From an uncultured Bacilli bacterium (GTDB taxonomy: Bacteria; Bacillota_I; Bacilli_A; RF39; UBA660), in assembly GCA_944363635.1 (NCBI GenBank), contig CALVUP010000002.1, forward strand, positions 21,974 to 85,973: DNA of 64,000 nucleotides, in the 5' to 3' direction. This document shows, piece after piece, positions 4,774-59,517 of this stretch. The translations under genes and the position numbers were made by a program. Position 1 is the first letter of the stretch, and each line of letters starts with the position of its first letter. The notes under the pieces were generated by a model. That model was not told the origin of the DNA, did not search any database, and worked only from the letters and a program-made list of their open reading frames with translations.

Positions 4774-6426
4774 TTATTTTACTTCAATTATATCATTTCC
4801 AAATAATAAACTAGCCTCTTGAACTTCCTCATCCTGCGAAGAAATCTCATTAGACTCATTTATTTCTTGTTTTTCCAATTCCTTAATCTCATATTTTATA
4901 TTATTTTTTATATTATTTATATAATGTATTTTTTCTTGTTCCCACTTTTCATCCGTTAACAATGAGATAGAATAATTTTCTCCTAAGATTTGTTTTAAAA
5001 CATGAACCAGAGAATCATACATTTCTATACCTCGATCAACCATGGAATCATATTCATAGCTTAAAATTAAATTGTTTTTTCCACAAGCACGAATATGACC
5101 ATCCACTAAATAACAAGCAATCGCACCAAAGTTTTTATCTAATAGATAATCATTTAATTTTTCCCACTCTTGTTTAAGTTGAATAAGATCATTTTTATTG
5201 GCTAAAGCAAATGTATTATTCATTATAATTTCATTGTTTTTTAAATTTATTTTTTTTCTCTGATCATCTAGAGATTGATTCTCCTCTTCTGAAGAAGATT
5301 GATTTTCTTCTAAATGTTCTTCTTTCTTATCTATAACATCAGAAGTTTTTGATACCTCTGTTTTAATCGAATTCGATTTTGAAACAGTGTCATTCCCTAA
5401 ATTTTCTTTATCAACCAAACAAATAATTCCTGCTTCAAATAAAGCTTTAATGTTATCTGTATTTTTTAAACGATTACATAAATCATTTAATTCAAAAATT
5501 AAATTACAATATTCACAAAAACCATTAGATGAATTATAATATTGCCTTATTTTCTGTCGTACATATTCAATTAACTCGTTCGTAAATAATATATAATCCT
5601 TTCCTGTGTCATACAACTCTGTAGAAATCGCAAGTATTTCATTTAGATTTCCATTTACTAGTGATGTAAAGAAGCGTTCCAATACTATAGAATCGACAAA
5701 TCCAAAAGTATTATTAAAGTCATTCATATGAATTTCTTTTTCTGAAGAAGCTGCAATTAATTTTTCTAAATTACCTATAGCATCTCTTAAACCACCATTG
5801 GAAATTTCTGAAATTTTAAGCAAAACATCATCATCTATATTTATTTTTTCTTCATCAGCAATAAATTTTAATCGATTTTTTATATCAACCACCGAAATAC
5901 TTTCAAAGTTTATACATTGACATCTAGATAAAATTGTGGATGGAACTTTTTGAATATCTGTAGTCGCTAAAATAAAAATAATATGTTCAGGAGGTTCCTC
6001 TAATGTTTTTAATAAAGCATTAAAAGCTCCAATAGTAAGCATATGTACTTCATCAATGATATAAATTTTATATTTTAATGAGGAACAAGAAAGAGATACA
6101 CTATTTCGAATTTCCCTAACCTCATCTACTCCATTATTAGATGCAGCATCAATTTCTATAATATCAACACTCTCATTTGAATTTATTTCTATACAATTTC
6201 TACAATGTTCACAAGCAACTCCATTTATAGGATTTAAACAATTAACACTTTTAGCAAGTATTTTCGCCATAGTTGTTTTTCCTGTTCCACGTGGACCCGA
6301 AAACAAATAAGCATGATTTATTTTTTTATTATTTAAAGAATTTTTGATAATTCGTACCGCGATTTTTTGACCTACAACATCATCAATTGTTTTAGGTCTA
6401 TACTTTCTATATAGTGATTGATACAT
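4774..6426 (-). CDS. dnaX: DNA polymerase III tau/gamma subunit
   Basis: Walker A GPRGTGKTT, zinc module C..C..C..C, AAA+ clamp loader. Start taken at M3 (MYQSLYRKYRP) with GGGGGAA RBS 5 nt upstream. Confidence 0.9.
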   Translation of the reverse strand: MYQSLYRKYRPKTIDDVVGQKIAVRIIKNSLNNKKINHAYLFSGPRGTGKTTMAKILAKSVNCLNPINGVACEHCRNCIEINSNESVDIIEIDAASNNGVDEVREIRNSVSLSCSSLKYKIYIIDEVHMLTIGAFNALLKTLEEPPEHIIFILATTDIQKVPSTILSRCQCINFESISVVDIKNRLKFIADEEKINIDDDVLLKISEISNGGLRDAIGNLEKLIAASSEKEIHMNDFNNTFGFVDSIVLERFFTSLVNGNLNEILAISTELYDTGKDYILFTNELIEYVRQKIRQYYNSSNGFCEYCNLIFELNDLCNRLKNTDNIKALFEAGIICLVDKENLGNDTVSKSNSIKTEVSKTSDVIDKKEEHLEENQSSSEEENQSLDDQRKKINLKNNEIIMNNTFALANKNDLIQLKQEWEKLNDYLLDKNFGAIACYLVDGHIRACGKNNLILSYEYDSMVDRGIEMYDSLVHVLKQILGENYSISLLTDEKWEQEKIHYINNIKNNIKYEIKELEKQEINESNEISSQDEEVQEASLLFGNDIIEVK

Positions 6427-6507
6427 ATGCATTCCCCCGTAAATAATATACTATTATTATAGCATTTATTGGATAAACTGTAAATCCAATTACGATTAAG
6501 TTTTTTT

Positions 6508-6521
6508 ATTTCCCGGGAAAT
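6508..6521. promoter_or_regulatory. Noc-binding-site-like palindrome ATTTCCCGGGAAAT (extended TTATTTCCCGGGAAATAA, 6506-6523)
   Basis: Perfect 14-bp match to the B. subtilis NBS consensus, abutting the tadA stop codon ~80 bp upstream of dnaX. Confidence 0.6.
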
Positions 6522-6524
6522 AAT

Positions 6525-6956
6525 TCATCTTTTTTCTTTAAAAAAGTTAGTTAACAAAATAGCGCATTCTTGAACTCGAACATTTTTTCGTATTTTTGTG
6601 TTTTTAAATATTTGATCAATGATTTTTAGATTCTTTTTTTCTGGTCTTGAAGCCCCATAAAACACGCAATCTATTCGAGATTGTTCTATGGCACTGGCAC
6701 ACATTGGACATGGTTCTAAGGTGGTGTAAATAGTACATCCATTTAATCGCCAATCTTTCTTTTTTCTACATGCCTTTTTAATAGCAATAATTTCAGCATG
6801 TGCATACACTAATTTATTTTTTTCTTTTTGATTATATCCTTTTCCTATGATTTTTCCATCAGAATCAACCACAATTGCTCCTACTGGAACTTCTTTTTTC
6901 TTATAAGCTTTTTTCGCTTCCAAAATTGCGAAATGCATATAATATTTATCATTCAT
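6525..6956 (-). CDS. tadA: tRNA-specific adenosine deaminase
   Basis: CDA zinc motifs HAEIIAI and PCPMC. Start placed at M5 because the ORF-track N-terminal codons overlap the ffs terminator. Confidence 0.85.
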   Translation of the reverse strand: MNDKYYMHFAILEAKKAYKKKEVPVGAIVVDSDGKIIGKGYNQKEKNKLVYAHAEIIAIKKACRKKKDWRLNGCTIYTTLEPCPMCASAIEQSRIDCVFYGASRPEKKNLKIIDQIFKNTKIRKNVRVQECAILLTNFFKEKR

Positions 6957-6968
6957 AAAATCACCCAT

Positions 6969-7050
6969 AAAAAATGACGCACATAAAAATGAATTATTAA
7001 GGCTGCTACTTTCCAGTCCTGACCTGATTCTAATTATTCTTATTGCGTCT
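6969..7050 (-). ncRNA. ffs: small SRP RNA (4.5S-type, ~80 nt)
   Basis: Minus-strand read 5'-GACGCA..AUCAGGUCAGGACUGGAAAGUAGCAGCC..UGCGUC-UUUUUU closely matches SRP RNA domain IV (E. coli CAGGUCAGGUCCGGAAGGAAGCAGCC) with a GGAA tetraloop. Closing helix GACGCA/UGCGUC, 3' U-tract, and a TTGAAA-17-TATTAT promoter placing the TSS at about 7050. Confidence 0.7.
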
Positions 7051-7055
7051 TAGTT

Positions 7056-7084: not shown

Positions 7085-7101
7085 GTTTTTTATTCGTTCA
7101 A

Positions 7102-7117
7102 TGTTTCACGTGAAACA
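7102..7117. promoter_or_regulatory. parS site 1 (TGTTTCACGTGAAACA)
   Basis: Perfect 16-bp match to the Spo0J/ParB parS consensus, inside a 26-bp perfect palindrome (7097-7122). Confidence 0.85.
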
Positions 7118-7170
7118 TTGAATATATTATCGAATAAACTTTACTTTTTTTTGTAAATGATTAAAAAATT

Positions 7171-7184
7171 ATTTCCCAGGAAAT
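7171..7184. promoter_or_regulatory. NBS-like site (ATTTCCCAGGAAAT, one mismatch)
   Basis: 13/14 match to ATTTCCCGGGAAAT, in repeat unit 1. Confidence 0.5.
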
Positions 7185-7217
7185 ATTTTAAATAAAACGA
7201 GTATTTATTACTAATAA

Positions 7218-7233
7218 TGTTTCACGTGAAACA
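7218..7233. promoter_or_regulatory. parS site 2 (TGTTTCACGTGAAACA)
   Basis: Perfect parS consensus in repeat unit 2. Confidence 0.85.
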
Positions 7234-7283
7234 TTGAATATATTATTAAATAAACTTTATTTTTTTATAAATGATTAAAAATT

Positions 7284-7297
7284 ATTTCCCAGGAAAT
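7284..7297. promoter_or_regulatory. NBS-like site (ATTTCCCAGGAAAT)
   Basis: 13/14 match to the NBS, in repeat unit 2. Confidence 0.5.
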
Positions 7298-7330
7298 ATT
7301 TTAAATAAAATGAATGTTTATTATTAATAA

Positions 7331-7346
7331 TGTTTCACGTGAAACA
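7331..7346. promoter_or_regulatory. parS site 3 (TGTTTCACGTGAAACA)
   Basis: Perfect parS consensus in repeat unit 3. Confidence 0.85.
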
Positions 7347-7398
7347 TTGAATATTTTTTTTTGAACATAGCCTATTTTGAATAAATATTCAAAATTTT

Positions 7399-7412
7399 AT
7401 TTCCCGGGAAAT
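7399..7412. promoter_or_regulatory. NBS site (ATTTCCCGGGAAAT; 22-bp perfect palindrome 7396-7417)
   Basis: Perfect NBS consensus 10 bp downstream of the gyrA stop. Confidence 0.6.
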
Positions 7413-7426
7413 AAAAAGAAGAAATT

Positions 7427-9886
7427 TTAAACTTCTTCTTTTTCTTCCTCAATATCAATATTATTTGTGTCTTCTTCCTGTTCTACAATAGCAATTGTTG
7501 ATACTTTTTGATTATCCTTTAAATGAATTAATCTTACACCTTGCGTAGATCTTTTTAATGTTGATACTTGTTCAAGAGGCATTTTTATAATAATTCCACT
7601 ATCAGTAATAATCATAATATCAAAGTTTTTGTTTTTATCTACACACTTCAAAGAAACCATCATTCCATTTTTCTCTGTGATATTTAATGCTTTAACACCT
7701 TTGCTACCTCTATGTGTTAATCGATACTCATCAATATCTGTTTGTTTTCCATATCCATTTTCAGTAACAACTAAAATATTACTATCTGTTTGAACGACTT
7801 CTCCACTAATAACACAACTATTGTCTAAGTCAATTCCTTTTACTCCAGATGCTGATCGGCCCATTACACGAATTTCGCTTTCTTTAAATCGAACCAATCG
7901 ACCATTATTCGCACCAATAATAATTTCATTATTACCAGTTGTCGCGCGTACACTAATTAATTCATCTTCTTCACGAAGAGTAATTGCGAGTTTTCCTGAT
8001 TTTCGAATTCGATCAAATTCGTTTAAAACCGTTCTCTTAACAATTCCGAATTTAGTAATAAACACTAAGTATTTATTTACTTCGTTATCACGAGATAGTC
8101 CAATTATCGAACTAATGTTCTCATTTTTCTCTAGTGGTAATAAATTGACAATCGGCAATCCCTTTGATTGTCTACTAAATTCTGGCACTTCATAACCTTT
8201 TATTCTATAAACTCTACCTTTATTCGAGAAGAATAATAAATAATCATGCGTTTTCATAGATATCAAGTGTTCGACAAAATCCTCCCCATTGGTAGACATC
8301 CCTTTAACACCAACTCCACCTCTATTTTGTGTTTTATATGTATTGTATTTCAATCTCTTTATATATCCTTTATTCGTCAATGTAACAATTACATCTTCAT
8401 TTGGAATTAACGATTCATCTTCTATATAATCAATAGCTGTCATATCAATGCTTGTTCTTCTTTCATCTCCATATTTATTCTTAATTTCAAGCATTTCTTT
8501 TTTAATAATTTCAAGAACTTTAGCTTCACTAGCTAAAATAGATCTTAATTCATCAATTTCTGCTAATAATTCTTTTAATTCATTTTCAATTTTATCTCTT
8601 TCTAAGCCAGTTAATCTTCTAAGTTTCATTTCAAGTATAGCTTGTCCTTGAGGTTCTGTTAAAGCAAAACGACTCATCAATCCTGCTAAAGCTTCAGTAT
8701 CACTTTTAGATTCTCTTATTAATTTAACAATAGCATCAATATGATCTAAAGCAATCTTTAAGCCTTCTAATATATGTGCTCTTTTTTCATCTTTATCCAA
8801 ATCAAATTTTGTTCTTCTAATAATGATTTCTTTTTGATAATCAATATATTTAGCAATAATATCTTTTAAACCTAAAGTTTTAGGGACTCCTTGATCTAAC
8901 ATCAAAAAGATAATACCATAATTTGTTTGAAAAGCTGTATGCTTATATAGATTGTTTAATACAACTTGTGGATTTGCATCTTTTTTTAATGTTATGGTTA
9001 TTTTGACACCATCTTTTAAATCCGTATGATAATCTGTAATGCCATCAATAACTTTATTATGAACCAATTCTGCAACTTTATTTTTTAATTCTAAAGTATT
9101 AATTCCATAAGGAACCTCATCCACAATAATATAATGTCTACCATTTTTTTCTTCAATAGTAGCTCGACTGCGAATAGTAATAGTTCCTCGTCCGGTTTCA
9201 TAGGCTTTTTTAATTCCACTATTTCCTAAGATAATTCCGCCCGTTGGAAAGTCTGGACCCTTTATATATTGCATTAATCCATCTAAATCAATATCCGGAT
9301 TATCAATGTATGCTACACACCCATCGATAACTTCTCCTAAATTATGAGGTGGAATATTCGTAGCCATACCAACAGCAATTCCCATAGTCCCATTTACTAA
9401 AATATTAGGAAAACGAGAAGGAAGAATCTCTGGTTCTTTCTCAGATTCATCAAAGTTAGGTATAAAATTTACTGTATCTTTATTAATATTTCTTAATAAT
9501 TCTAAAGAAATTTTAGAAAGCCTTGATTCGGTATAACGCATAGCTGCAGCCCCATATCCTTCGATATTTCCGAAATTACCATGGCCATCTACAAGCATAT
9601 AACGATAAGAAAAATCTTGTGCCATTCTTACCATAGCTTCATAAATAGAAGAATCTCCATGTGGATGATATTTTCCCATAACATCTCCAACAATTCTAGC
9701 ACTTTTTTTATGAGGTTTATCTGGAGTATATCCTGATTCATACATAGAATATAAAATTCTTCGATGTACTGGTTTTAATCCATCTCTTAAATCAGGTAAT
9801 GCTCTAGCAACAATAACACTCATTGAATACTCAAGAAATGAATCTCTAACTTCTTTAACTATATTGTTTTTTTCTAATCTATCCAT
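7427..9886 (-). CDS. gyrA: DNA gyrase subunit A
   Basis: 819 aa, catalytic tyrosine region AAMRYTE, C-terminal beta-pinwheel repeats. Confidence 0.95.
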
Positions 9887-13055: not shown

Positions 13056-13529
13056 TTATTTCATAAAATAGATATTCTTTTGATCCGTCGTACGATTTCT
13101 TAGTACCGATTCTAATCTTGTGGATCGTAAAATCTGATTTTCAATAGATCGATAAGAAACAGGAACATTCATTTTTTTCCCTTCTTTAAAATAAAGGTTT
13201 GTTGTATGATTTTCTCCTTTTTCTATTTTTTGAATATTATGCAAGGAAATCCAGATACAAGAATCTAATGCAGGTGATTCCGTTGGGAAAAAAATAATAT
13301 AATTTTCTTCTTTTACTATAATAGGTACTTTATAACTAGAACCTAATATATTTTGACTTCCACCTTTTCGCCCTTCATATGTGCTTCCAAAATATTGACA
13401 ACTCGCATCCATAATTTCATATGGATTTTTCTCCACAACAAATTCATAATCCTTTTCTAATACTTTCGTTTTCTTTTTATCAATTGGTAAAATAACTAAA
13501 GTATCCTCATTAATTTCATAACTTTTCAT
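13056..13529 (-). CDS. comK: ComK-family competence transcription factor homologue
   Basis: SYEINEDTLVILP, CQYFGSTYEGRKGGS, IIFFPTESP..C.WIS and VPVSYRSIENQ blocks align with B. subtilis ComK (SYEVNGATIAVLP, CRFFGSSYAGRKAGT, IFLFPT, LPISYNSFENQ). Confidence 0.75.
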   Translation of the reverse strand: MKSYEINEDTLVILPIDKKKTKVLEKDYEFVVEKNPYEIMDASCQYFGSTYEGRKGGSQNILGSSYKVPIIVKEENYIIFFPTESPALDSCIWISLHNIQKIEKGENHTTNLYFKEGKKMNVPVSYRSIENQILRSTRLESVLRNRTTDQKNIYFMK

Positions 13530-14854: not shown

Positions 14855-16225
14855 TTATTTTTTTGAACAACTATCAATTTCTTTTTGTAAAATATCAATA
14901 ATTTGCCGTAATTCAGGATTTACTTTTAGTTCCCTTTCTATTTTATCACAAGAATGGATGACTGTCGAATGATCTTTACCTCCAAATTCAATTCCTAGTT
15001 TAGGAAAAGACTCATCTGTGCAATTCCTACAAAGATACATAGCAATTTGTCTTGGAAAAGCAACATTATAGTTTCTTTTCTTGCTTTTTAGATCTTCTAT
15101 GGATATTTTAAAATATTCTGCTACAATTCTTTGTATTTTATGAACATCATCTTTTTCATATGAACCTTTACTAACATAATCCGTTAGCGCATCCATTGCT
15201 AGATCAACTGTGATATCACATCCCCCCATCATAGAAGAATAAGCAAGCAAACGATTAATAGATCCTTCCAATTGTCTTACATCACCACTAACATTAAATG
15301 CAATATATTCAATTACATCTTCTGGAATATTTTTTTCAATGATGGAAGCTGCTATTTTTTTCTTCACAATGGCAACTCTTAAATCAAAGTTTGGTGGTTG
15401 AATATCAACCGTAATTCCCCAACAAAATCTTGTTTTTAATCGATCTTCAAGTTTTTTTAAATCATCCGGAGAACGATCAGAAGAAATAATAATTTGCTTG
15501 TTACTATTATATAAAGAATTAAAAGTATGAAAAAATTCTTGTTGCGATTGTGTCGTTCCACCTAAAAACTGGATATCATCGATAATTAAAACATCAATAT
15601 TACGATATTTATCTTTAAAAAGATCGATTACATCTAGATTATTACTATTATTTTTTTTATTAATTCCAACAAAATCTTCAATAAATTTATCACTTGTAAC
15701 ATATAAAACCTTTTTATTCGAATGTTCCGTTATATAATTTCCAATTGCATGCATTAAATGTGTTTTTCCTAAACCACTATTCCCATATATAAATAAAGGA
15801 TTATAAATACTACCTGGATTTTCCGCAACTGCAACAGCTGTCGCATGAGCTAATCGATTACTATTTCCAACGACAAAATTTTCAAAAGTATATTTTTTAA
15901 TAAGATTGGTCTCAAAATGATTGTTTATTTCATTGTGTATATTATTATTTATTTTTTCTTCTTGCTTCATATCCATGATTTCATCTTGAAGAAAATATTC
16001 AATATTTTTATAATCCGTATAAATTGTGGATAAAGTTTCATCAATAATATCTTTATATTTATCATGAAGATGCGTTTTGTGGATAGACATTGGCACAATT
16101 ACTCGAAAAATACCATTATCTATATCATATAAAGAAGTGTCTTTAAACCATGTTTCATAGGATAATGTTGATATTTTATCTTTAATTTTTTCTAAAAAAT
16201 TGTCCCAAATGATTTTATAATTCAT
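14855..16225 (-). CDS. dnaA: chromosomal replication initiator DnaA
   Basis: AAA+ Walker A GNSGLGKTHL and C-terminal DNA-binding domain. Start taken at MNYKIIWDNF (ATG 16223-16225) because the track's upstream codons encode the RBS GGGAGGTG. Confidence 0.95.
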   Translation of the reverse strand: MNYKIIWDNFLEKIKDKISTLSYETWFKDTSLYDIDNGIFRVIVPMSIHKTHLHDKYKDIIDETLSTIYTDYKNIEYFLQDEIMDMKQEEKINNNIHNEINNHFETNLIKKYTFENFVVGNSNRLAHATAVAVAENPGSIYNPLFIYGNSGLGKTHLMHAIGNYITEHSNKKVLYVTSDKFIEDFVGINKKNNSNNLDVIDLFKDKYRNIDVLIIDDIQFLGGTTQSQQEFFHTFNSLYNSNKQIIISSDRSPDDLKKLEDRLKTRFCWGITVDIQPPNFDLRVAIVKKKIAASIIEKNIPEDVIEYIAFNVSGDVRQLEGSINRLLAYSSMMGGCDITVDLAMDALTDYVSKGSYEKDDVHKIQRIVAEYFKISIEDLKSKKRNYNVAFPRQIAMYLCRNCTDESFPKLGIEFGGKDHSTVIHSCDKIERELKVNPELRQIIDILQKEIDSCSKK

Positions 16226-16321
16226 TTTTTTCAACACCTCCCCGCCTGAAAATAAAGGTTTGATTACCATTATTCTAAAACAAATACACAGAAAAATAAA
16301 GTAAAAAAAACATAATTTTTT

Positions 16322-16439
16322 TTATTCACAATAAATTCACAGGATTATCCACAATTATTTTCCTTATATAATAAAGAATTTATAAATTTTCCACAAATAT
16401 GAATTTCTTTTTCCACAAGAGATTTAAAAATTATTCACA
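16322..16439 (+). other. oriC: oriC DnaA-box cluster (six TTWTYCACA boxes, same orientation)
   Basis: TTATTCACA 16322, AAATTCACA 16333, TTATCCACA 16345 (perfect), TTTTCCACA 16387, TTTTCCACA 16409, TTATTCACA 16431. All lie in the AT-rich dnaA-rpmH intergenic region. Confidence 0.8.
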
Positions 16440-16723: not shown

Positions 16724-17071
16724 ATGAAAAAAATAAATATTATAAAAGAGAATAAAACATTTAATCAAATAATAAACTTAAATAAATGTGTGAAAGATAA
16801 AAATTTCATTATTTATTATAATTATAATCCAGAAAATAACAATTATCGCTTTGGTATTTCAGTAGGCAAAAAAATAGGACATGCTGTTATAAGAAATAAA
16901 TACAAACGAAAAATAAGAAATATTATTGATAATAATAAAAAACTCTATGCAAAAAAACTAGATTATATTATAATAGTAAGAAAGAACTGTTTAAATTTAA
17001 CTTTTTTGGAAATGGAAAAAAGTTTTATTCAATTGATTAATAAAATAAAGAAAGAGGATCTATATGATTAA
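16724..17071 (+). CDS. rnpA: RNase P protein component
   Basis: 115 aa, basic protein; rpmH-rnpA-yidC synteny. Confidence 0.85.
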   Translation: MKKINIIKENKTFNQIINLNKCVKDKNFIIYYNYNPENNNYRFGISVGKKIGHAVIRNKYKRKIRNIIDNNKKLYAKKLDYIIIVRKNCLNLTFLEMEKSFIQLINKIKKEDLYD

Positions 17072-18005
17072 GAAAATAACAAGAGTATTTTTAATAGGAA
17101 TTATTTTATTTTCTTTAACAGGTTGTACAAAAACACTTATTGATGAAGATAATAAAGCTGTTAAAAATCCAGTCACAGGGCAAACGTTAACTGAAAATAT
17201 TATTTGTAAGCCACAGGATGAAAAAACAATAGAAGTTTATAAAGAACATGATATTGATATTGATCAATTACCAGAGTGTCATGATTTAAAAATAAATAGT
17301 GGTTCTTATGAAGGCCTTTGGACAAATATTTTTGTAGAACCTTTAGCATGGTTTATCATTCAAGTTGGAAATGTAGTAAAAAATTATGGCTTAGCTTTAA
17401 TTATTACAAGTTTGCTTATTCGATTTATCGTATTGCCTTTAACCAGAAAAAGTGCTATGCAATCTGAATTGTTAAAAGAGGCTCAAAAAGATTTAAATAA
17501 AATTGAAAAGAAATATATAAACAAAACCGATCAAGAATCTTTAATGAAAAAAAGTCAAGAAATGACAATGGTTTATAAGAAACATGGAATTAATCCTGTA
17601 GCTGGATGTTTGGTTGCATTTATTCAATTACCATTGTTTATTGCTTTCTTTGAAGCCATTAATCGAGTTCCAGCTATTTTTGAAGATCACTTTTTATGGA
17701 TGCAAATGGGAACAACACCATGGGTTGGAATTACATCTGGCAATTTTGTTTATTTGCTTTTATTAATTGCTATTGCAGCAACAACGTATTTCAGCTTTAA
17801 ATTTTCAGCTGCAGATTCTATGGCTTCCACAGGATCACAAATGGGTACTATGAAAAAAATGCCTCTTATTATGACCATAGTAATTGTTATAATGGGAATG
17901 TTTATGACTTCTGCTATAGGAATTTATTGGGTAACAACCAACTTATTTACAGTTGTTCAAAATATATTAATTAAAAGGAGTCGTGAAAAAAATGAAAAAA
18001 TATAA
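17064..18005 (+). CDS. yidC: membrane protein insertase YidC/OxaA (lipoprotein type)
   Basis: Lipobox LTGC followed by a multi-TM 60-kDa-IMP core; synteny. Confidence 0.85.
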   Translation: MIKKITRVFLIGIILFSLTGCTKTLIDEDNKAVKNPVTGQTLTENIICKPQDEKTIEVYKEHDIDIDQLPECHDLKINSGSYEGLWTNIFVEPLAWFIIQVGNVVKNYGLALIITSLLIRFIVLPLTRKSAMQSELLKEAQKDLNKIEKKYINKTDQESLMKKSQEMTMVYKKHGINPVAGCLVAFIQLPLFIAFFEAINRVPAIFEDHFLWMQMGTTPWVGITSGNFVYLLLLIAIAATTYFSFKFSAADSMASTGSQMGTMKKMPLIMTIVIVIMGMFMTSAIGIYWVTTNLFTVVQNILIKRSREKNEKI

Positions 18006-18632: not shown

Positions 18633-18656
18633 AAGACAAATTTTGTCTTTTTTTTA
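18633..18656 (+). terminator. rho-independent terminator after khpB
   Basis: AGACAAA/TTTGTCT stem followed by a T8 run. Confidence 0.6.
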
Positions 18657-18669
18657 TTTCCCGGGAAAT
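18656..18669. promoter_or_regulatory. NBS site ATTTCCCGGGAAAT (extended TTATTTCCCGGGAAATAA)
   Basis: Perfect NBS consensus directly after the khpB terminator, ~60 bp upstream of mnmE. Confidence 0.6.
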
Positions 18670-20093: not shown

Positions 20094-20107
20094 ATTTCCC
20101 GGGAAAT
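20094..20107. promoter_or_regulatory. NBS site ATTTCCCGGGAAAT (24-bp perfect palindrome 20088-20111)
   Basis: Perfect NBS consensus 9 bp after the mnmE stop and ~25 bp before mnmG. Confidence 0.6.
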
Positions 20108-22668: not shown

Positions 22669-22697
22669 TTGTAATAAAAAGTAAAATCATGTATAAT
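22669..22697 (+). promoter_or_regulatory. promoter of the noc-like gene (TTGTAA-17 nt-TATAAT)
   Basis: Near-consensus sigma-A elements about 40 nt upstream of the start. Confidence 0.5.
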
Positions 22698-22732
22698 GCT
22701 AATATAGGGTTTTTATAGAATAGAAGGGGAAG

Positions 22733-24055
22733 ATGTTTATGGATAACAGTAATGAAAAAAACGAAGTAGTTTATTTATATTTAGATGATATCATTCCAAA
22801 TCGATTTCAACCAAGAGAAAGATTTGATGAGGGGGCATTAAGGGAATTAGCAGCTTCGATCAAAGAACACGGAGTTATTCAACCAATTATTGTTCGAAAA
22901 ATCGGAGACAAATATGAGATCATTGCTGGAGAAAGAAGATATAAAGCTTCCGCTTTAGCAGGACTTACAAAAATCCCTGCAATTATTCGAAATTTAGATG
23001 ATAAAGAATCAAGTAAAGTAGCCCTTTTGGAAAATTTACAAAGAAAAAATTTAAGTCCAATAGAGGAAGCACGAACTTATCAAAAAATCTTAGATTTGGA
23101 TCAAATGACACAGTTTGAATTAGCAAAAACCATGGGAAAATCACAACCCGTTGTAGCAAATAAATTAAGATTGCTTACTCTTCCTGATGAGGTACAAGAA
23201 GCGTTATTAAAAGAGCAAATTTCAGAAAGACATGCCCGTAGTTTATTAGCGCTAAATAACGCAGAAGATCAAATAGAGATGCTACATAAAATAATTAATA
23301 ATCGGATGACAGTTCGTGAAACGGATGAAGAAATAAGAAAAATGACAAATACTGCAAATTTTGGATTACCAGGATTAGAAAGTACACATGTTGAGAAAAC
23401 AGAACCTAAAAATCAAATGGAGCAACCAATGCCAAAACCTACACAAATCAATGTTCAACCACAAAAAAGTACTGTAATGCCACAAATGCCAAACTATGAA
23501 GTCAATCAAAATATTGCTACTATTCCAGATGTGAACACATTAAGAGAACAGGCTGTGGATATAAACGATTTAAACAAAATGCCTACGAATGTTGCTCCAA
23601 CAGCTGTATCTCAAAATGAAGGAAAACAAGAAGAAGCAATTCAACCTGTATTACCTGAAATATCTGAAAGTGATCAGGATAAACCATTTATTGATTTAGA
23701 AGAACTGTTAAAAACACCAGAGACTGTACCTATTGAAGAACAACCACCAAAGCAAGATCCACCAAAAGAAGAAACCGAAGAGTTATTAGAAAAAATTGAA
23801 ACATCTGAATCTCAAGCATTAGAAGAAACCTTAGATGTTGAAAAATTAGATGACACACCAAAGCCAAAAGCTTCAGAGGAAAAGCCATTACCTTCTGTTA
23901 TAGATACAAAATCAATAAATGTATTTGATTTACGATTAGCAATTTCAACGATTCGAGATACAATTAAACAATTAGAAGATAAAGGAATAAATATAGATAC
24001 TGAGGAAATTGATTTTGAAGACCATTATCAAATAGTAGTCAAAATTCAAAAATAA
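22733..24055 (+). CDS. noc: Noc-like ParB paralogue with a long acidic/Pro-rich internal insertion
   Basis: ParB N-domain GERRYKA. The HTH region GKSQPVVANKLRLLTLP aligns with B. subtilis Noc (GKGQSTIANKLRLLKLP), not with Spo0J. C-terminal dimerisation segment is also Noc-like. A ~190-aa low-complexity insertion lies between them. Start at 22733 or 22739. Confidence 0.7.
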   Translation: MFMDNSNEKNEVVYLYLDDIIPNRFQPRERFDEGALRELAASIKEHGVIQPIIVRKIGDKYEIIAGERRYKASALAGLTKIPAIIRNLDDKESSKVALLENLQRKNLSPIEEARTYQKILDLDQMTQFELAKTMGKSQPVVANKLRLLTLPDEVQEALLKEQISERHARSLLALNNAEDQIEMLHKIINNRMTVRETDEEIRKMTNTANFGLPGLESTHVEKTEPKNQMEQPMPKPTQINVQPQKSTVMPQMPNYEVNQNIATIPDVNTLREQAVDINDLNKMPTNVAPTAVSQNEGKQEEAIQPVLPEISESDQDKPFIDLEELLKTPETVPIEEQPPKQDPPKEETEELLEKIETSESQALEETLDVEKLDDTPKPKASEEKPLPSVIDTKSINVFDLRLAISTIRDTIKQLEDKGINIDTEEIDFEDHYQIVVKIQK

Positions 24056-24164: not shown

Positions 24165-24953
24165 ATGAGTAAAGTTATTTCGTTAGTAAATCAAAAAGGA
24201 GGAGTCGGTAAAACGACGACAAGCATAAACTTATCATCTTCTTTAGCAGTATTAGGAAAAAGAGTATTATTAATCGATTTAGATCCTCAAGGAAATACAA
24301 CCACAGGTATAGGAATTAATAAAGGAGAAATAGACAAAAGTATTTATGATGTGTTAACTGGGAATTGTACAATACAAGAAGCAATGGTAAAAACAAAATA
24401 TCAAAATTTATTTGTATTACCATCATCTATTAATTTAGCGGGAATTGATATGGAATTAATGGAAAAAAGTAGAAATGATGTTACTTATGATAAAAGAAGA
24501 CAATTAAAAAAGCATTTAGATACTGTCTCAGATTATTTTGATTTTGTAATTATTGATTGTCCACCTTCTTTAGGATTAATCACGACCAACGCTTTAACAG
24601 CTTCTAACTCAGTAATGATACCCGTTCAATGTGAATTTTACGCTTTAGAGGGAATTACGCAATTGTTAAATACAATTATATTGGCCCAAAAAAACTTAAA
24701 TCCAAATCTTGAAATTGAAGGAGTTCTATTAACTATGTTGGATTCAAGAACCAATTTGGGATTAGAAATTGTTGAAGAAATACGAAAATATTTTAAAGAA
24801 AAAGTATATGATACAATCATTCCTAGATTAATTCGTTTATCTGAAGCACCATCTCATGGAAAACCTATCATTGCTTACGATCCTAAAAGTAGAGGTGCAG
24901 AGGCTTATCTAAATTTAGCAAAGGAAGTGATTTCTAAGAATGGAAACGTCTAA
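24165..24953 (+). CDS. soj: chromosome partitioning ATPase ParA/Soj
   Basis: Deviant Walker A KGGVGKTTT, 262 aa. Confidence 0.9.
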   Translation: MSKVISLVNQKGGVGKTTTSINLSSSLAVLGKRVLLIDLDPQGNTTTGIGINKGEIDKSIYDVLTGNCTIQEAMVKTKYQNLFVLPSSINLAGIDMELMEKSRNDVTYDKRRQLKKHLDTVSDYFDFVIIDCPPSLGLITTNALTASNSVMIPVQCEFYALEGITQLLNTIILAQKNLNPNLEIEGVLLTMLDSRTNLGLEIVEEIRKYFKEKVYDTIIPRLIRLSEAPSHGKPIIAYDPKSRGAEAYLNLAKEVISKNGNV

Positions 24954-25818
24954 AAGAAGAGCTTTAGGTAGAGGATTGGAAGAATTATTTAGTAATGAAC
25001 CTATTGCTTATAATAAAGTAGAAAGTAAAATATTAGAAGAAACACCAAAAGAAAACATAGTAGAATTAAATTTGGATGAATTAAGGGCAAATCCTTATCA
25101 ACCAAGAAAAGTCTTTGATGAAGAAGCACTAAAAGAGTTAGCAGCTTCTATTAAAGAACATGGTGTTTTTCAACCAATCATTGCAAAAAAAAGTATAAAA
25201 GGTTATGAAATTATTGCTGGAGAAAGAAGAGTAAAAGCTTCAAAACTAGCAGGATTAAAAACAATTCCAGCCATTGTTCGAGATTTTACAGACAATGAAA
25301 TGATGGAAATTGCCCTTCTAGAGAACTTACAAAGGGAAAATTTAACTGCTATAGAAGAAGCTGAAGCATATAAAAATTTGTTAGATACATTAGATATAAC
25401 CCAAGAAAAGTTAGCAGAACGAATTGGCAAAAGTCGTAGTTATATTACCAATATGCTTGGGTTATTAAACTTACCAGATAATGTTAAAAAACTACTTGAA
25501 GAAAAAAAGATTACGATGAGTCATGCTCGAGTTTTAAGTAAAATTGAGGATGAACAAAAAATTACGGAGCTTGCTAATAAGATTATAGCAGAAAATTTAA
25601 ATGTTCGTGATATAGAAGAAATTTCCAAAGATCATCATATCAAAAAGACAAAAGAAAATAAAAAGCATAGTGAAACAAATGAATATACTTATATTGAAAA
25701 TGAATTGTGTGAAAAATTTGGTACAAAAGTAAAAGTAAAAACAAACAAATTAGAAATTTCCTTTTCCAACATTAATGATTTAAATAGAATATTAGAAATC
25801 ATGAAGATTCATTTATAG
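24940..25818 (+). CDS. spo0J: chromosome partitioning protein ParB/Spo0J
   Basis: GERR box, HTH GKSRSYITNMLGLLNLP with ParB-type R/T specificity residues. Confidence 0.9.
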   Translation: METSKRRALGRGLEELFSNEPIAYNKVESKILEETPKENIVELNLDELRANPYQPRKVFDEEALKELAASIKEHGVFQPIIAKKSIKGYEIIAGERRVKASKLAGLKTIPAIVRDFTDNEMMEIALLENLQRENLTAIEEAEAYKNLLDTLDITQEKLAERIGKSRSYITNMLGLLNLPDNVKKLLEEKKITMSHARVLSKIEDEQKITELANKIIAENLNVRDIEEISKDHHIKKTKENKKHSETNEYTYIENELCEKFGTKVKVKTNKLEISFSNINDLNRILEIMKIHL

Positions 25819-54823: not shown

Positions 54824-55084
54824 ATGTATGAAAGTATTAAAGATAGAGTGATTGAAGTAGCCAATTATATGCTGAAAAGCAAACAAACGATTCGAGAAAT
54901 TGCTAAAAAGTTTCATATAAGTAAAAGTACGATTCATAAGGATATATCCTATCGGCTTAGATTTATCGATTATTCTTTATATGAAGAAGTAAGTAAAGTT
55001 GTTAAAGAACACAAAGATATAAGGCATATAAGAGGAGGCGAATCGACAAGAATTAAATATTTACAAAAAAGAAAAGGAAGGTAA
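54824..55084 (+). CDS. spoIIID: sporulation transcriptional regulator SpoIIID
   Basis: 86 aa. VIEVANYML..KQTIREIAKKFHISKSTIHKD and IRHIRGGESTRIKY align with B. subtilis SpoIIID; mbl immediately downstream as in B. subtilis. Confidence 0.85.
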   Translation: MYESIKDRVIEVANYMLKSKQTIREIAKKFHISKSTIHKDISYRLRFIDYSLYEEVSKVVKEHKDIRHIRGGESTRIKYLQKRKGR

Positions 55085-57297: not shown

Positions 57298-58029
57298 ATG
57301 TTAAATTTTATAATTGGTGAAGATAACACAAAATTTTCTGCACGCACCAAACAAATCATTGAAAATTTTATGATGAATTATGATATTGAATATCATATGG
57401 ATTGCTTTCCAAATTATGGGAAGGATTTTAAAAAGGCGGCCAAAGCAGAAAGTGGATTTAAAATATATTTTCTTGATATCAAAACAGATGAAGGTTCAGG
57501 ACTTGATGCAGCTCGAATGATTCGAGAAGAACTAGATGATTGGGTATCCATTATTGTTATTATTACTTCTTATACAGAGTATAAATATGAAGCGTTAGGA
57601 AATAGATTATATTTATTAGATTTTATATCTAAGTTTGATGATTGCGAGAAAAGAATTAAAGAATGCTTAGAAATCGCTTTAAAAAATTATGATAATAGAC
57701 ATAAATCTTTAAGCTTTTCTTATAATCATATCATAAAGAAAATTGAATATAGAAACATTGTCTATATTGAAAAAGAGCAAGAGAGTAAAAGATGTATTAT
57801 CAACACAACCTATGGAGATCATTTTATAAACGATACATTAAATAATGTTTATGCAAAATTAGATAAACGCTTTATCAAAGTAAATCGAAGTTTAATTGTA
57901 AATTCTGATTTTATTAGAGAATATGATGTAAAAAATAATAAGATCATATTTTCAAATGGAACCTATACACATTTAATATCAAAAACAGGTAGAAAGGAAT
58001 TAATGAAGTATGTTGGAAGTAGTAATTAA
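57298..58029 (+). CDS. LytTR-family response regulator (AgrA/ComE-like)
   Basis: Receiver-like N-domain (FLDIKTDEGSGLDAARMI) plus C-terminal LytTR DNA-binding domain; 243 aa. Confidence 0.75.
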   Translation: MLNFIIGEDNTKFSARTKQIIENFMMNYDIEYHMDCFPNYGKDFKKAAKAESGFKIYFLDIKTDEGSGLDAARMIREELDDWVSIIVIITSYTEYKYEALGNRLYLLDFISKFDDCEKRIKECLEIALKNYDNRHKSLSFSYNHIIKKIEYRNIVYIEKEQESKRCIINTTYGDHFINDTLNNVYAKLDKRFIKVNRSLIVNSDFIREYDVKNNKIIFSNGTYTHLISKTGRKELMKYVGSSN

Positions 58030-59299
58030 ATTTTTATGTAGTTTAATTGGTTCTGTAGCCGGTATTCTAATAATCGAAAATATTTCTAAAATAAAATTTA
58101 AACTCAATTTAAAAAACATAATATTATTAATACTTTTATCAGTAATTACAACATTACAATTTAAAACAGAATATACTATAACCATATCTTTAACTGTATA
58201 TATACTTATAATAATGATATATAAATGGTTATTTAATATGAGTTATAAAAAATCTGTATTATTGGGTGGAGTAGTATTAATAATTACTTCGATGTCCGAT
58301 TTAATGTGGGCAATAATATTAAAACAATTTTTTACTAACGATCAATTAAGAGAACCAACTATTTTATTTTTAATGTTTAATATGTTAGTATATTCAAGCG
58401 CATATTTTTTATCTCATGTGTTTAATTATAAACGATTTCTAACAAAATTTATTGCCAAAACAGATAATAGTAAAATATATAGTCAGTTTATTTTTATAAT
58501 TTTAACAGTGGTTGTTTCGTGTTTAATAATATATGATATTACATCTCTTAAGATTATTGGAATGGAACAATATATAATTACATTATCTACTTTTGTTTTA
58601 ATGTTAATCCTGGTTTTGATTTATATTAAATCAAAAAACGATAATGATAAGTTACAAGAACAATTCGATTATTTATATAATTATTCTAAGAATTATGAGG
58701 ATTGGATTACCAAAGAACAATTAAATATTCATGAAAACAAAAATCAATTGATTGTATTACGCGATATGGTTAAAAAGAATGAAAAAGCGGTAAACTACAT
58801 TAATGAGATCTTGGAAGAAGATTTTGTTATAGAAGATAAATGGATTGGACAATTATCCAATATTCCAAAGGGTGGGTTAAAAGGATTATTATATTATAAA
58901 TTAATTACGATAGAAAAAGACAATCTAAACTTTTGTGTAGATATTAGTAAAAATGTTAAAACAAAGTTAAAAAAATTACAGAAAGATCAATTAAAAGATA
59001 TTAGTCATATCATTGGTATATTTATAGACAATGCGATAGAAGCTTCTGTAAATTCTAAGAAGAAAATGTTCTCTTTAGAGATTTATTGCATAAAAAAAGA
59101 ATTGAATATAGTAATTACCAATTCATTTGATGGCCAAATTGAACTTAATAAAATTAATAATAATGGATATTCTACCAAAGGAAAAGACCGTGGTAAAGGA
59201 TTGTATTTTGTCTCTAAAATAAAAGAGAAAAATCCAAATATACTTACGGAAGCACATATTATTAATAATTATTTTGTACAGAAAATTATTATAAAATAA
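58010..59299 (+). CDS. AgrC-type (HPK10) membrane sensor histidine kinase
   Basis: Six N-terminal TM helices; C-terminal GHKL ATPase with N-box FIDNAIEAS and G-box GKDRGKGLY; 429 aa; 20-nt overlap with the upstream RR gene. Confidence 0.75.
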   Translation: MLEVVIKFLCSLIGSVAGILIIENISKIKFKLNLKNIILLILLSVITTLQFKTEYTITISLTVYILIIMIYKWLFNMSYKKSVLLGGVVLIITSMSDLMWAIILKQFFTNDQLREPTILFLMFNMLVYSSAYFLSHVFNYKRFLTKFIAKTDNSKIYSQFIFIILTVVVSCLIIYDITSLKIIGMEQYIITLSTFVLMLILVLIYIKSKNDNDKLQEQFDYLYNYSKNYEDWITKEQLNIHENKNQLIVLRDMVKKNEKAVNYINEILEEDFVIEDKWIGQLSNIPKGGLKGLLYYKLITIEKDNLNFCVDISKNVKTKLKKLQKDQLKDISHIIGIFIDNAIEASVNSKKKMFSLEIYCIKKELNIVITNSFDGQIELNKINNNGYSTKGKDRGKGLYFVSKIKEKNPNILTEAHIINNYFVQKIIIK

Positions 59300-59303
59300 A
59301 AAT

Positions 59304-59337
59304 AAAACTCCTATCATCTTTGAGTTTTATTTTTTTT
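59304..59337. terminator. bidirectional terminator between the kinase gene and agrD
   Basis: AAAACTC/GAGTTTT stem followed by T-run; A-run on the other side serves the convergent agrD transcript. Confidence 0.55.
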
Positions 59338-59342
59338 ATAAT

Positions 59343-59459: not shown

Positions 59460-59517
59460 TTTACTACCTCCTACTACTATATTTATCTAAATTTATAAAA
59501 ATAAATTAGATACAAAA

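What the first reader, a model, noticed from the sequence alone, without database searches (positions are those of the whole stretch)
22733..24055. Noc-like ParB paralogue with a ~190-aa disordered insertion and no obvious N-terminal amphipathic helix
The N-terminal ~200 aa match Noc specifically: HTH GKSQPVVANKLRLL, with Gln/Lys where Spo0J in this window has Arg/Thr. The last ~45 aa match the Noc C-terminal domain. Between them is a Pro/Glu/Gln/Lys-rich low-complexity segment (roughly nt 23350-23920) absent from B. subtilis Noc. The N-terminus (MFMDNSNEKNEV...) does not resemble the short membrane-targeting amphipathic helix of B. subtilis Noc. This suggests a different tethering or spacing mechanism for a protein whose binding sites are clustered at oriC.
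Basis: partly seen in the sequence, partly recalled or inferred. Interest (0 to 1): 0.6.

Follow-up and report, generated by a model that had tools for sequence, protein, structure and literature searches.

The report
Noc orthologue without its membrane anchor
This gene is the Noc (nucleoid occlusion) orthologue of an uncultured gut Bacillus relative, but it lacks the membrane-binding helix thought universal in Noc, carries a long acidic disordered linker with short conserved motifs, and its DNA sites sit interleaved with the chromosome-partition sites next to the replication origin, so it probably works differently from textbook Noc.

Summary
ORF 22733-24055 (440 aa; possibly starting at 22739) is a true Noc orthologue. 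It shows rsmG-noc-soj-spo0J synteny, the NBS-specificity residues Q/K/R and a Noc-type C-terminal domain. It groups with canonical Noc in 100/100 NJ bootstraps, and perfect B. subtilis-type NBS sites lie nearby.

[quoted passage not shown] A ~190-aa disordered linker (net charge -22) replaces the ~16-aa basic tether of canonical Noc.

This is neither an assembly artefact nor an oddity of one genome. More than 250 homologues, including 150 clusters at 50% identity, share the architecture: no helix, and a linker of 92-552 aa that is always net negative. Many carry short motifs in a conserved order.

NBS sites concentrate around oriC. Three alternate with three parS sites in a 113-bp tandem array downstream of gyrA. 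The same interleaved array occupies that syntenic spot in 85 metagenome contigs and in genomes encoding long-linker Noc.

Most likely this Noc loads next to Spo0J at the origin and recruits partners through linker motifs instead of binding the membrane directly; that step is inferred. New variant of a known kind.

The parts
22669..22697 (+). Promoter-like site (TTGTAA-17-TATAAT) upstream of noc
   Evidence: Consensus scan, 10 of 12 matches. This is a consensus match only, not a demonstrated promoter.
22733..24055 (+). noc orthologue, 440 aa (alternative start at 22739 gives 438 aa)
   Evidence: ORF list. TIGR04285 scores 305.9 bits. Best PDB hits are Noc. NJ tree groups it with Noc in 100/100 bootstraps.
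22769..23041 (+). ParB N-terminal (CTP-binding) domain, aa 13-103, with the GERRY and ENLQR motifs
   Evidence: Pfam PF02195, 117 bits. The motif residues are invariant in 34 homologues.
23045..23347 (+). HTH DNA-binding domain, aa 105-205. The recognition stretch GKSQPVVANKLRLL (aa 135-148) carries Q138, K144 and R166, equivalent to Q173, K179 and R201
   Evidence: Pfam PF17762, 116 bits. The model superposes on the Noc-DBD/NBS structure 6Y93 at 1.3-1.6 A. Specificity positions are taken from PMC7383237. The family shows Q-K-x-R in 78/78 sequences.
23351..23917 (+). Acidic disordered linker, aa ~207-395
   Evidence: pLDDT 40-50. Net charge -22 with no family hit. No tandem repeat apart from a 15-bp unit x2.5, and GC content is normal.
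23519..23566 (+). Linker motif M1, aa 263-278 (TIPDVNTLREQAVDIN)
   Evidence: Motif HMM hit, E 5e-6. M1 is found in 81 of 146 family representatives. There is a local pLDDT rise to 66-69 with a helix at 267-272.
23684..23731 (+). Linker motif M2, aa 318-333 (PFIDLEELLKTPETVP)
   Evidence: Motif HMM hit, E 1e-3. M2 is found in 38 of 146 representatives. Local pLDDT is 61. It resembles the Spo0J N-terminal motif GRGLEELF; this is a lead only.
23879..23905 (+). Possible M3-like motif, aa 383-391 (EKPLPSVID)
   Evidence: Conserved as EKPLPSV(V/I)D among close relatives. The M3 HMM does not detect it, so the assignment is tentative.
23918..24052 (+). Noc-type C-terminal dimerisation domain, aa 396-440
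   Evidence: Matches TIGR04285 profile positions 211-255, E 8e-8. It is 40% identical to the B. subtilis Noc C-terminal domain, E 9e-7. pLDDT is about 90.
7100..7413 (.). Tandem array of a 113-bp unit x2.7. It holds 3 perfect parS sites (7102, 7218, 7331) alternating with 3 NBS sites (7171 and 7284 with one mismatch, 7399 perfect)
   Evidence: The same arrangement is found in 85 metagenome contigs and in L167, L169 and L170.
6508..6521 (.). Perfect NBS in the tadA-dnaX intergenic region
   Evidence: The same position carries an NBS in L167 and L168.
18656..18669 (.). Perfect NBS in the jag-mnmE intergenic region
   Evidence: Conserved in L167 and L168.
20094..20107 (.). Perfect NBS in the mnmE-mnmG intergenic region
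   Evidence: Perfect NBS sites recur 2.6-3.4 kb upstream of noc in 9 of the 80 related genome loci (13 loci carry an NBS anywhere) and in L168.
16322..16439 (.). DnaA-box cluster (oriC) upstream of dnaA
   Evidence: Five boxes within 120 bp.
24165..24953 (+). soj (parA)
   Evidence: Pfam AAA_31 and ParA families.
24940..25818 (+). spo0J (parB), canonical 292 aa. It has the N-terminal LGRGLEELF motif and R/M/N/S at positions 173/179/184/201

Best explanation
The gene is the orthologue of Noc, the NBS-specific paralogue of ParB, in a lineage of uncultured, AT-rich gut Bacilli. In this lineage the effector parts of the protein have been rebuilt. The CTP-binding N-domain, the NBS-reading HTH domain and the Noc-type dimerising C-domain are kept. 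[quoted passage not shown] The short basic tether between the DNA-binding and C-terminal domains is replaced by a 90-550-aa acidic disordered linker carrying two or three short motifs in a fixed order.

The protein most likely still loads as a CTP-dependent clamp at NBS sites. Here those sites are concentrated within about 20 kb of oriC and alternate with parS sites in a tandem array downstream of gyrA. Noc therefore assembles side by side with Spo0J on the origin region. It probably cannot bind the membrane directly. Instead it presents a negatively charged brush whose motifs recruit one or more partner proteins, still unidentified, from division, segregation or replication.

Shown here: orthology, specificity residues, cognate sites and their clustering, absence of the helix, linker properties, motif conservation, and co-occurrence with the arrays.

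Inferred: CTP clamp behaviour, loss of direct membrane binding, partner recruitment, and the cellular role.
For: Orthology:
- Synteny is rsmG-noc-soj-spo0J.
- TIGR04285 scores 305.9 bits, against 247 for the window's Spo0J.
- The best solved relatives are Noc.
- The C-terminal domain is of Noc type.
- The NJ tree gives long plus canonical Noc monophyletic in 100/100 bootstraps, long Noc monophyletic in 95/100, and long Noc with its own Spo0J in 0/100.

DNA specificity:
- Q173, K179 and R201 equivalents are present; one Lys at 179 or 184 is sufficient (PMC7383237).
- Q-K-x-R is found in 78/78 family members.
- The window has 4 perfect and 2 one-mismatch NBS sites against 0.43 expected.
- In related loci, 16 of 22 CCCGGG hexamers lie inside a full NBS.

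No anchor:
- A stop codon lies four codons upstream.
- 258 homologues have 10-42 residues before NRFQPR, and none of these stretches is cationic-amphipathic.
- The 116 canonical Nocs have 38-57 residues there, and 103 of them start MK..FS[KR][FL]F.
- In B. subtilis the helix is required for function, and was predicted in all homologues examined (PMC4331003).

Linker:
- It is 92-552 aa with net charge -6 to -86 in 258/258 homologues, against 0-20 aa and 0 to +7 in canonical Noc.
- It is predicted disordered.
- It diverges fast (17-70% identity) while NTD+DBD stays at 78-100%.
- Motifs M1, M2 and M3/M4 are enriched over shuffled linkers and occur in a conserved order.

Origin context:
- The window carries an interleaved parS/NBS array.
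- The same array is found in 85 metagenome contigs, 83 of which carry a gyrA or dnaX homologue. In all 34 contigs that have both genes, the parS sites lie between them.
- The array lies on the same contig as a long Noc in L167, L169 and L170.
- Over 82 kb of this contig, NBS sites occur only from -17 to +4 kb of oriC.
Against: - Nothing biochemical was tested: not CTP binding, not sliding, not membrane binding, not any partner.
- No partner is identified. The motifs are present in only 26-55% of family representatives, and 27 of 146 representatives carry none of them.
- The window protein has M1 and M2 but no clear M3/M4.
- Only 82 kb of the genome was surveyed, so NBS sites scattered at B. 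subtilis-like density (about 1 per 57 kb) elsewhere cannot be excluded.
- In NTD+DBD alone the protein is about as similar to its own Spo0J (180 bits) as to B. subtilis Noc (191 bits).
- The protein falls just under NCBI's curated Noc cut-off (305.9 against 315 bits).
Confidence: 0.55

Rival explanations
1. The linker is a passive element, an acidic entropic spacer or brush. It enlarges the clamp lumen, for example to let Noc slide past Spo0J bound at neighbouring parS sites, or it keeps DNA and other macromolecules away. No specific partner is involved.
For: The linker sequence and length are hypervariable (17-70% identity, 92-552 aa), while only net negative charge is universal, in 258/258 homologues. 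27 of 146 representatives have none of the motifs. The tight interleaving of NBS and parS sites makes roadblock bypass a plausible need.
Against: Short motifs are enriched 15-30-fold over shuffled linkers and keep the order M1-M2-M3/M4 across distant members. They coincide with local pLDDT rises, which is typical of binding motifs embedded in disorder.
Confidence: 0.2
2. Direct membrane binding is retained but has moved: a hydrophobic motif inside the linker (M4 'PGKFFN(L/M)', M3 'KF(I/L/V)P(S/N)F') replaces the N-terminal helix.
For: The M4 core [KR]FF resembles the canonical core SRFFGL. The best matches of a canonical-helix HMM within the linkers fall on M4. M3 and M4 are mutually exclusive and occupy the same position in the motif order.
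Against: The helix HMM scores no better on real linkers than on shuffled ones (at most 0.7 bits). M3 contains proline. The motifs are flanked by acidic residues, which would be repelled by anionic membranes. The window protein has no M3 or M4 hit and no cationic amphipathic segment in its linker.
Confidence: 0.1
3. It is a decaying or functionless Noc remnant whose loss of the helix and gain of low-complexity sequence reflect relaxed selection.
For: The helix is essential for Noc function in B. subtilis. The linker evolves fast.
Against: ORFs are intact in more than 250 homologues. NTD+DBD is 78-100% identical across the family, and the CTP-motif and DNA-contact residues are invariant. Perfect NBS sites are kept at conserved intergenic positions and in arrays. 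The gene has a promoter-like site of its own.
Confidence: 0.03
4. The insertion is an assembly or sequencing artefact, or a foreign insertion, or the gene is simply a second Spo0J copy.
For: None was found. Public annotation does name relatives only 'ParB/RepB/Spo0J family partition protein'.
Against: Eleven sequences at 98-100% identity, all 438 or 440 aa long, come from NCBI, ENA and Logan entries. The architecture is shared by 150 clusters at 50% identity. There is no frameshift, GC content is normal and there is no repeat structure. The specificity residues are Q/K/R, not R/x/x/G. The tree places the protein with Noc.
Confidence: 0.01

Closest known systems
Noc of Bacillus subtilis, Geobacillus thermoleovorans and Staphylococcus aureus (TIGR04285; PDB 7NFU, 7NG0, 7OL9, 6Y93)
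   Same: Same gene position (rsmG-noc-soj-spo0J). Same ParB-type CTP-binding N-domain motifs and HTH with Q173/K179/R201. Identical NBS core ATTTCCCGGGAAAT. Noc-type C-terminal domain. Monophyletic with these proteins in 100/100 bootstraps.
   Different: No N-terminal membrane-targeting helix; only 22 residues precede NRFQPR, against 38-57 in canonical Noc. Position 184 is never Lys. The DBD-CTD tether is 92-552 aa and acidic, not 0-20 aa and basic. The linker carries short conserved motifs. NBS sites alternate with parS sites in arrays beside oriC. The protein scores just below the curated family cut-off.
Chromosomal ParB/Spo0J
   Same: Same fold and same CTP-clamp motifs. Loading sites lie close to oriC, a distribution more like parS than like the scattered NBS sites of B. 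subtilis.
   Different: Reads NBS rather than parS (Q/R instead of R/G at positions 173/201). No N-terminal LG(R/K)GL ParA-binding peptide. Different C-terminal domain. A canonical Spo0J is encoded two genes downstream.
Origin-anchored division regulators such as MipZ-ParB of Caulobacter (comparison from general knowledge)
   Same: A possible shared logic: a factor held at the segregating origins could position division without being spread over the whole nucleoid.
   Different: No homology. No ATPase partner has been identified here. This is an analogy only, and an untested one.

Membership tests
Noc (nucleoid occlusion protein, TIGR04285) | ParB-type N-terminal domain with CTP-binding motifs (GERRxRA, ENLQR) | tested here: met
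   PF02195 scores 117 bits. GERRY and ENLQR are present and invariant in 34 homologues.
Noc (nucleoid occlusion protein, TIGR04285) | NBS-specificity residues Q173, K179 and/or K184, R201 (PMC7383237) | tested here: met
   The window protein has Q, K, T, R. One Lys at 179 or 184 is sufficient according to the paper. The family shows Q-K-x-R in 78/78 sequences.
Noc (nucleoid occlusion protein, TIGR04285) | Cognate NBS sites (ATTTCCCGGGAAAT) in the genome | tested here: met
   Six sites at up to 2 mismatches against 0.43 expected, reached by 0 of 100 shuffles. All four CCCGGG hexamers in the window lie inside perfect NBS sites.
Noc (nucleoid occlusion protein, TIGR04285) | Noc-type C-terminal domain | tested here: met
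   aa 396-440 match profile positions 211-255, E 8e-8, and the Spo0J C-terminus does not. 40% identity to the B. subtilis Noc C-terminal domain.
Noc (nucleoid occlusion protein, TIGR04285) | Gene position between rsmG (gidB) and soj-spo0J | tested here: met
   The same order is found in L167, L169 and L170.
Noc (nucleoid occlusion protein, TIGR04285) | Groups with Noc and not with ParB in a phylogeny | tested here: met
   NJ tree on 201 columns, 41 sequences, rooted on M. xanthus ParB: Noc monophyletic in 100/100 bootstraps.
Noc (nucleoid occlusion protein, TIGR04285) | N-terminal membrane-targeting amphipathic helix (MK..FS[KR][FL]F), required for function in B. subtilis | tested here: not met
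   The N-terminus is MFMDNSNEKNEV with a stop four codons upstream. No cationic amphipathic segment was found. The helix is absent in 258/258 long homologues and present in 103/116 canonical Nocs.
Noc (nucleoid occlusion protein, TIGR04285) | Score at or above NCBIfam's curated cut-off (315 bits) | tested here: not met
   305.9 bits, with the match split into two stretches by the insertion.
Noc (nucleoid occlusion protein, TIGR04285) | CTP-dependent clamp closure, CTP-switched membrane binding, inhibition of division over the nucleoid | not testable with these tools
   Needs biochemistry and cell biology.
Chromosomal ParB/Spo0J | R173 and G201 (parS reading) | tested here: not met
   Q and R at these positions.
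Chromosomal ParB/Spo0J | N-terminal ParA-interaction peptide LG(R/K)GLxxL(L/F) | tested here: not met
   Absent from the N-terminus. It is present in the neighbouring Spo0J and in 71 of 72 Spo0J sequences of the clade.
Chromosomal ParB/Spo0J | ParB_C dimerisation domain (PF23552) | tested here: not met
   No hit for this protein; weak hit for the window's Spo0J.

The most novel reading that the evidence does not exclude
In this clade Noc is not a membrane-tethering nucleoid-occlusion factor. It is a second centromere-binding clamp that co-assembles with Spo0J on interleaved parS/NBS arrays beside oriC. Motifs in its acidic disordered linker would recruit a division, segregation or replication partner. 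One candidate is Soj, bound through the M2 motif, which resembles the ParB N-terminal ParA-binding peptide but lacks its activating Arg/Lys. The result would be an origin-anchored way of coupling division or initiation to segregation.
Probability: 0.3. Interest if true: 0.8.

Novelty: new variant of a known kind. Interest (0 to 1): 0.62.

Why it matters
The accepted model of Noc rests on its N-terminal amphipathic helix. DNA-bound, CTP-activated Noc tethers the chromosome to the membrane and so crowds out the division machinery. The helix was reported as highly conserved and predicted in every homologue examined.

A large, monophyletic group of Noc orthologues keeps the NBS-reading clamp but lacks the helix and carries an acidic linker with conserved motifs. 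This shows that the clamp module can be coupled to a different output.

Pang et al. 2017 inferred species-specific contacts of Noc with replication or division factors. These proteins offer natural material for finding such contacts.

The conserved alternation of parS and NBS sites in tandem arrays beside oriC raises a directly testable question. How do two paralogous CTP clamps load and slide on interleaved sites, and do they act as one composite centromere? I found no description of these arrays in the papers searched.

Tried and rejected
1. Relocated membrane helix. An HMM built from 116 canonical Noc N-termini scored no better on real linkers than on shuffled ones (at most 0.7 bits). Its best hits fell on the M4 'RFF' core, so this stays a weak lead and not a finding.

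2. Hydrophobic-moment scan for a cationic amphipathic helix. The only hits were inside folded domains, with none in the N-terminus or linker.

3. Assembly artefact, foreign insertion or minisatellite. Rejected on near-identical sequences from separate public entries, normal GC content and the absence of any meaningful tandem repeat.

4. Independent ParB duplication with convergent specificity. Rejected by the tree and the shared Noc-type C-terminal domain.

5. Linking array-bearing metagenome contigs to noc-bearing genome loci by nucleotide overlap. Only 73-84% identity was found, with no same-species pair. The link was made instead through DnaA-anchored loci.

6. Family searches of the linker alone. 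No hit in NCBIfam, and no Pfam family beyond the ParB domains.

7. Literature searches for long-linker Noc, acidic ParB linkers or parS/NBS arrays. Nothing relevant was found in the held library.

8. Co-folding of linker motifs with Soj.
Full report
THE OBJECT

ORF 22733-24055 (+) encodes 440 aa. An in-frame TAG lies four codons upstream of the first ATG (22721-22723), so the N-terminus cannot be longer than MFMDNSNEKNEV. A second ATG at 22739 is better spaced from the AAGGGG Shine-Dalgarno sequence, and public gene calls give both 440-aa and 438-aa versions. A promoter-like TTGTAA-17-TATAAT site lies at 22669-22697.

The gene sits in the classic origin-region order. On one side are dnaA (14855-16270, minus strand), dnaN, recF, gyrB and gyrA. 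On the other are rnpA, yidC, jag, mnmE, mnmG, rsmG, this gene, soj and spo0J. A cluster of five DnaA boxes at 16322-16439 marks oriC.

The contig is a 106.7-kb scaffold of a metagenome-assembled genome (ENA ERZ28615057). It encodes mreB, ftsX/pcsB, LysM/M23 peptidases, spoIIID, spoVT and bofA, so the organism is a walled cell and not a mollicute. Relatives are uncultured gut and rumen 'Bacilli', among them Clostridium sp. CAG:710, CAG:417 and Candidatus Onthousia, and MAGs labelled Tenericutes or Erysipelotrichaceae. NCBI files Onthousia under Bacilli incertae sedis.

IS IT NOC?

Yes, by every sequence test except two.

- Pfam finds ParB_N and HTH_ParB.
- The NCBIfam Noc model TIGR04285 scores 305.9 bits, against 247 for the window's own Spo0J. 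That is just under the curated cut-off of 315, with the match split in two by the insertion.
- The best solved relatives are Noc of G. thermoleovorans and B. subtilis (213-217 and 184 bits), ahead of Spo0J (176 bits).
- The AlphaFold2 model superposes on the Noc DBD-NBS structure 6Y93 at 1.3-1.6 A.
- Jalal et al. 2020 showed that NBS specificity is set by Q173, K179, K184 and R201, and that one lysine at 179 or 184 suffices (PMC7383237). The window protein has Q, K, T, R. Across related loci the long proteins have Q-K-x-R in 78 of 78 cases.
- The window's Spo0J has R, M, N, S at these positions.
- The last 45 residues match positions 211-255 of the Noc model (E 8e-8), whereas the Spo0J C-terminus does not. 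They are 40% identical to the C-terminal domain of B. subtilis Noc.
- An NJ tree of NTD+DBD (41 sequences, 201 columns, rooted on M. xanthus ParB) groups long and canonical Noc in 100/100 bootstraps. The long proteins are monophyletic in 95/100. They never group with the Spo0J of their own clade.

One caveat applies. On pairwise scores of NTD+DBD alone, the protein is barely closer to B. subtilis Noc (191 bits) than to its own Spo0J (180 bits).

COGNATE SITES

The B. subtilis NBS core ATTTCCCGGGAAAT occurs perfectly at 6508, 7399, 18656 and 20094, and with one mismatch at 7171 and 7284. That is 6 sites at up to 2 mismatches against 0.43 expected, a count reached by 0 of 100 shuffles. All four CCCGGG hexamers in this 29%-GC window lie inside perfect NBS sites. 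In 923 kb of related loci, 16 of 22 CCCGGG hexamers do.

The sites at tadA-dnaX, jag-mnmE and mnmE-mnmG recur at the same intergenic positions in relatives.

WHAT IS MISSING AND WHAT IS ADDED

Canonical Noc starts with a membrane-targeting amphipathic helix. In B. subtilis it is required for function. Adams et al. 2015 found it highly conserved and predicted it in all homologues they examined (PMC4331003). Jalal et al. 2021 showed that CTP binding releases it (PMC8429893).

As a control I collected 116 canonical Bacillaceae Nocs:
- length 265-298 aa;
- 38-57 residues before the NRFQPR motif;
- 103 of 116 start MK..FS[KR][FL]F;
- DBD-CTD tether of 0-20 aa with net charge 0 to +7.

The window protein has 22 residues before NRFQPR, and they are acidic or polar. 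A hydrophobic-moment scan finds no cationic amphipathic segment outside the folded domains.

Between residue ~206 and the C-terminal domain lie about 190 residues. Counted over aa 206-398 they contain E 28, P 24, K 16, Q 15, R 1, with net charge -22. pLDDT there is 40-50, against 84-95 in the DBD and about 90 in the C-terminal domain. The segment has no family match, no real tandem repeat and normal base composition.

NOT AN ARTEFACT, AND NOT ONE GENOME

Eleven sequences at 98-100% identity, all 438 or 440 aa long, come from NCBI, ENA and Logan entries. All 120 best hits in the 5.8-billion-protein search are 332-507 aa, apart from one 249-aa fragment. All 150 best representatives at 50% identity are 335-798 aa apart from two fragments, with the ParB domain starting at residues 2-8 in nearly all of them.

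Over 258 such proteins:
- the N-terminal stretch is 10-42 residues, median 17, with no helix;
- the linker is 92-552 aa, median 210;
- the linker net charge is negative in every case, from -6 to -86, median -23;
- Arg makes up 1% of linker residues, and Trp and Cys are absent.

NTD+DBD stays 78-100% identical while the linker falls to 17-70%. This is the usual signature of a disordered region selected for bulk properties.

MOTIFS IN THE LINKER

Reduced-alphabet k-mers are enriched 15-30-fold over shuffled linkers. Iterated motif HMMs define four motifs:
- M1, PGF(M/V)D(I/V)xKIExxAxDI, in 81 of 146 representatives;
- M2, ADLDSLLK, in 38;
- M3, KF(L/V/I)P(N/S)FD, in 31;
- M4, PGKFFN(L/M), in 30.

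M3 and M4 never occur together. The order M1-M2-M3/M4 is almost always kept.

The window protein has M1 at aa 263-278 (E 5e-6) and M2 at aa 318-333 (E 1e-3). Both coincide with local pLDDT rises to 66-69 and 61. It also has a tentative M3-like EKPLPSVID at aa 383-391.

M2 in the window (DLEELL) resembles the invariant ParA-binding peptide of this clade's Spo0J, LG(R/K)GLEELF, found in 71 of 72 Spo0J sequences. M2 lacks the basic residue of that peptide. I treat this as a lead only.

M4's [KR]FF core resembles the canonical helix core SRFFGL. However, a helix HMM does not score above shuffles, so a relocated anchor is not supported.

ORIGIN CONTEXT

Three perfect parS sites (7102, 7218, 7331) alternate with three NBS sites in a 113-bp tandem repeat, copy number 2.7, at 7100-7413. 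The array lies between gyrA and the SRP RNA gene (6968-7054), tadA and dnaX.

A scan of metagenome contigs for parS followed within 40-65 bp by NBS returned 85 contigs, all with GC 0.21-0.33. They carry dense clusters of up to 18 sites, in which 71% of neighbouring site pairs alternate in type. 83 of the 85 contigs carry a gyrA or dnaX homologue. In all 34 contigs that carry both, the parS sites lie between the two genes.

Loci anchored on DnaA homologues show the cluster and a long-linker Noc on one contig:
- L167: Noc of 477 aa, with parS-NBS-parS just downstream of gyrA;
- L169: Noc of 457 aa, with five NBS (one only at two mismatches) and four parS sites at a 117-bp period;
- L170: Noc of 484 aa.

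I extended the survey along the same scaffold to 82 kb. NBS sites were found only from about -17 to +4 kb of oriC, and none in the 54 kb to the right. It does not exclude a sparse genome-wide set of sites.

HOW IT MOST LIKELY WORKS

The conserved CTP motifs, DNA-contact residues and C-terminal domain argue for a CTP-dependent clamp that loads at NBS sites and spreads (inferred by homology). Two features argue that direct membrane binding is lost: the helix is absent across the family, and a basic tether has been replaced by an acidic one, which would be repelled by anionic lipid and by DNA (inferred).

The ordered motifs within a disordered acidic linker suggest partner recruitment. The interleaving with parS places this activity within the Spo0J partition complex at the origin. 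I put about 0.55 on this overall reading.

The main rival is a purely passive spacer or brush, perhaps enlarging the clamp lumen so that Noc can pass Spo0J bound at neighbouring sites (0.2). Next is a cryptic membrane motif in the linker (0.1). Decay and artefact are unlikely.

Pang et al. 2017 showed that S. aureus Noc also restrains replication initiation. They also showed that Noc orthologues need species-specific contacts (PMC5540599). That makes a partner-binding module plausible.

NOVELTY

I found no paper describing Noc without the helix, an acidic long-linker ParB-family clamp, or parS/NBS arrays. Public annotation calls these proteins only 'ParB/RepB/Spo0J family partition protein'.

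The protein is a member of the Noc lineage, but it fails one function-defining feature of Noc. I therefore rate it a new variant of a known kind.

Noticed in passing
window 7100-7413; also L081-L165, L167, L169, L170: Tandem arrays in which perfect parS and NBS sites alternate at periods of about 105-117 bp. They are conserved in the gyrA-(SRP RNA/tadA)-dnaX intergenic region across 85 metagenome contigs and several genomes of this clade. I found no description of such composite arrays in the papers searched.
   Followed up: yes
window 24940-25818 (Spo0J, HTH GKSRSYITNMLGLL...MSHAR): This Spo0J has Ser at the position equivalent to G201, which Jalal et al. 2020 call absolutely conserved in ParB. 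In their deep mutational scan, dual parS/NBS binders mostly had T or S at that position. S201 occurs in 17 of 71 Spo0J sequences of the clade. Possible cross-reading of NBS by Spo0J is untested.
   Followed up: partly
window 13056-13529 (-): A ComK-family gene (Pfam PF06338, E 4e-45) sits between dnaN and recF. The same arrangement is found in L166-L170, so it is conserved in the clade.
   Followed up: partly
window 6968-7054 (-): Small bacterial SRP RNA (Rfam RF00169, 59 bits) directly next to the parS/NBS array, followed by tadA (6540-6965, minus strand) and dnaX (4774-6432, minus strand).
   Followed up: yes
L172:13765 (about 950 bp beyond the left end of the window, inside mfd): One further one-mismatch NBS (ATTTCCTGGGAAAT, the same variant as in the array) about 17 kb from oriC. 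No NBS, parS or CCCGGG occurs in the 10 kb beyond the right end of the window (L171).
   Followed up: yes
window 57298-60105: An agr-like quorum-sensing cluster: a LytTR response regulator, an HATPase_c_5 histidine kinase and an AgrB homologue (Pfam hits listed).
   Followed up: no
window 54824-55084 and L172 (about 16966-17508 and 8990-9178): Sporulation-associated genes (spoIIID, spoVT-like, bofA), plus mreB, in a MAG whose relatives are often labelled Tenericutes or Erysipelotrichaceae. This suggests a walled, possibly spore-forming rod.
   Followed up: no
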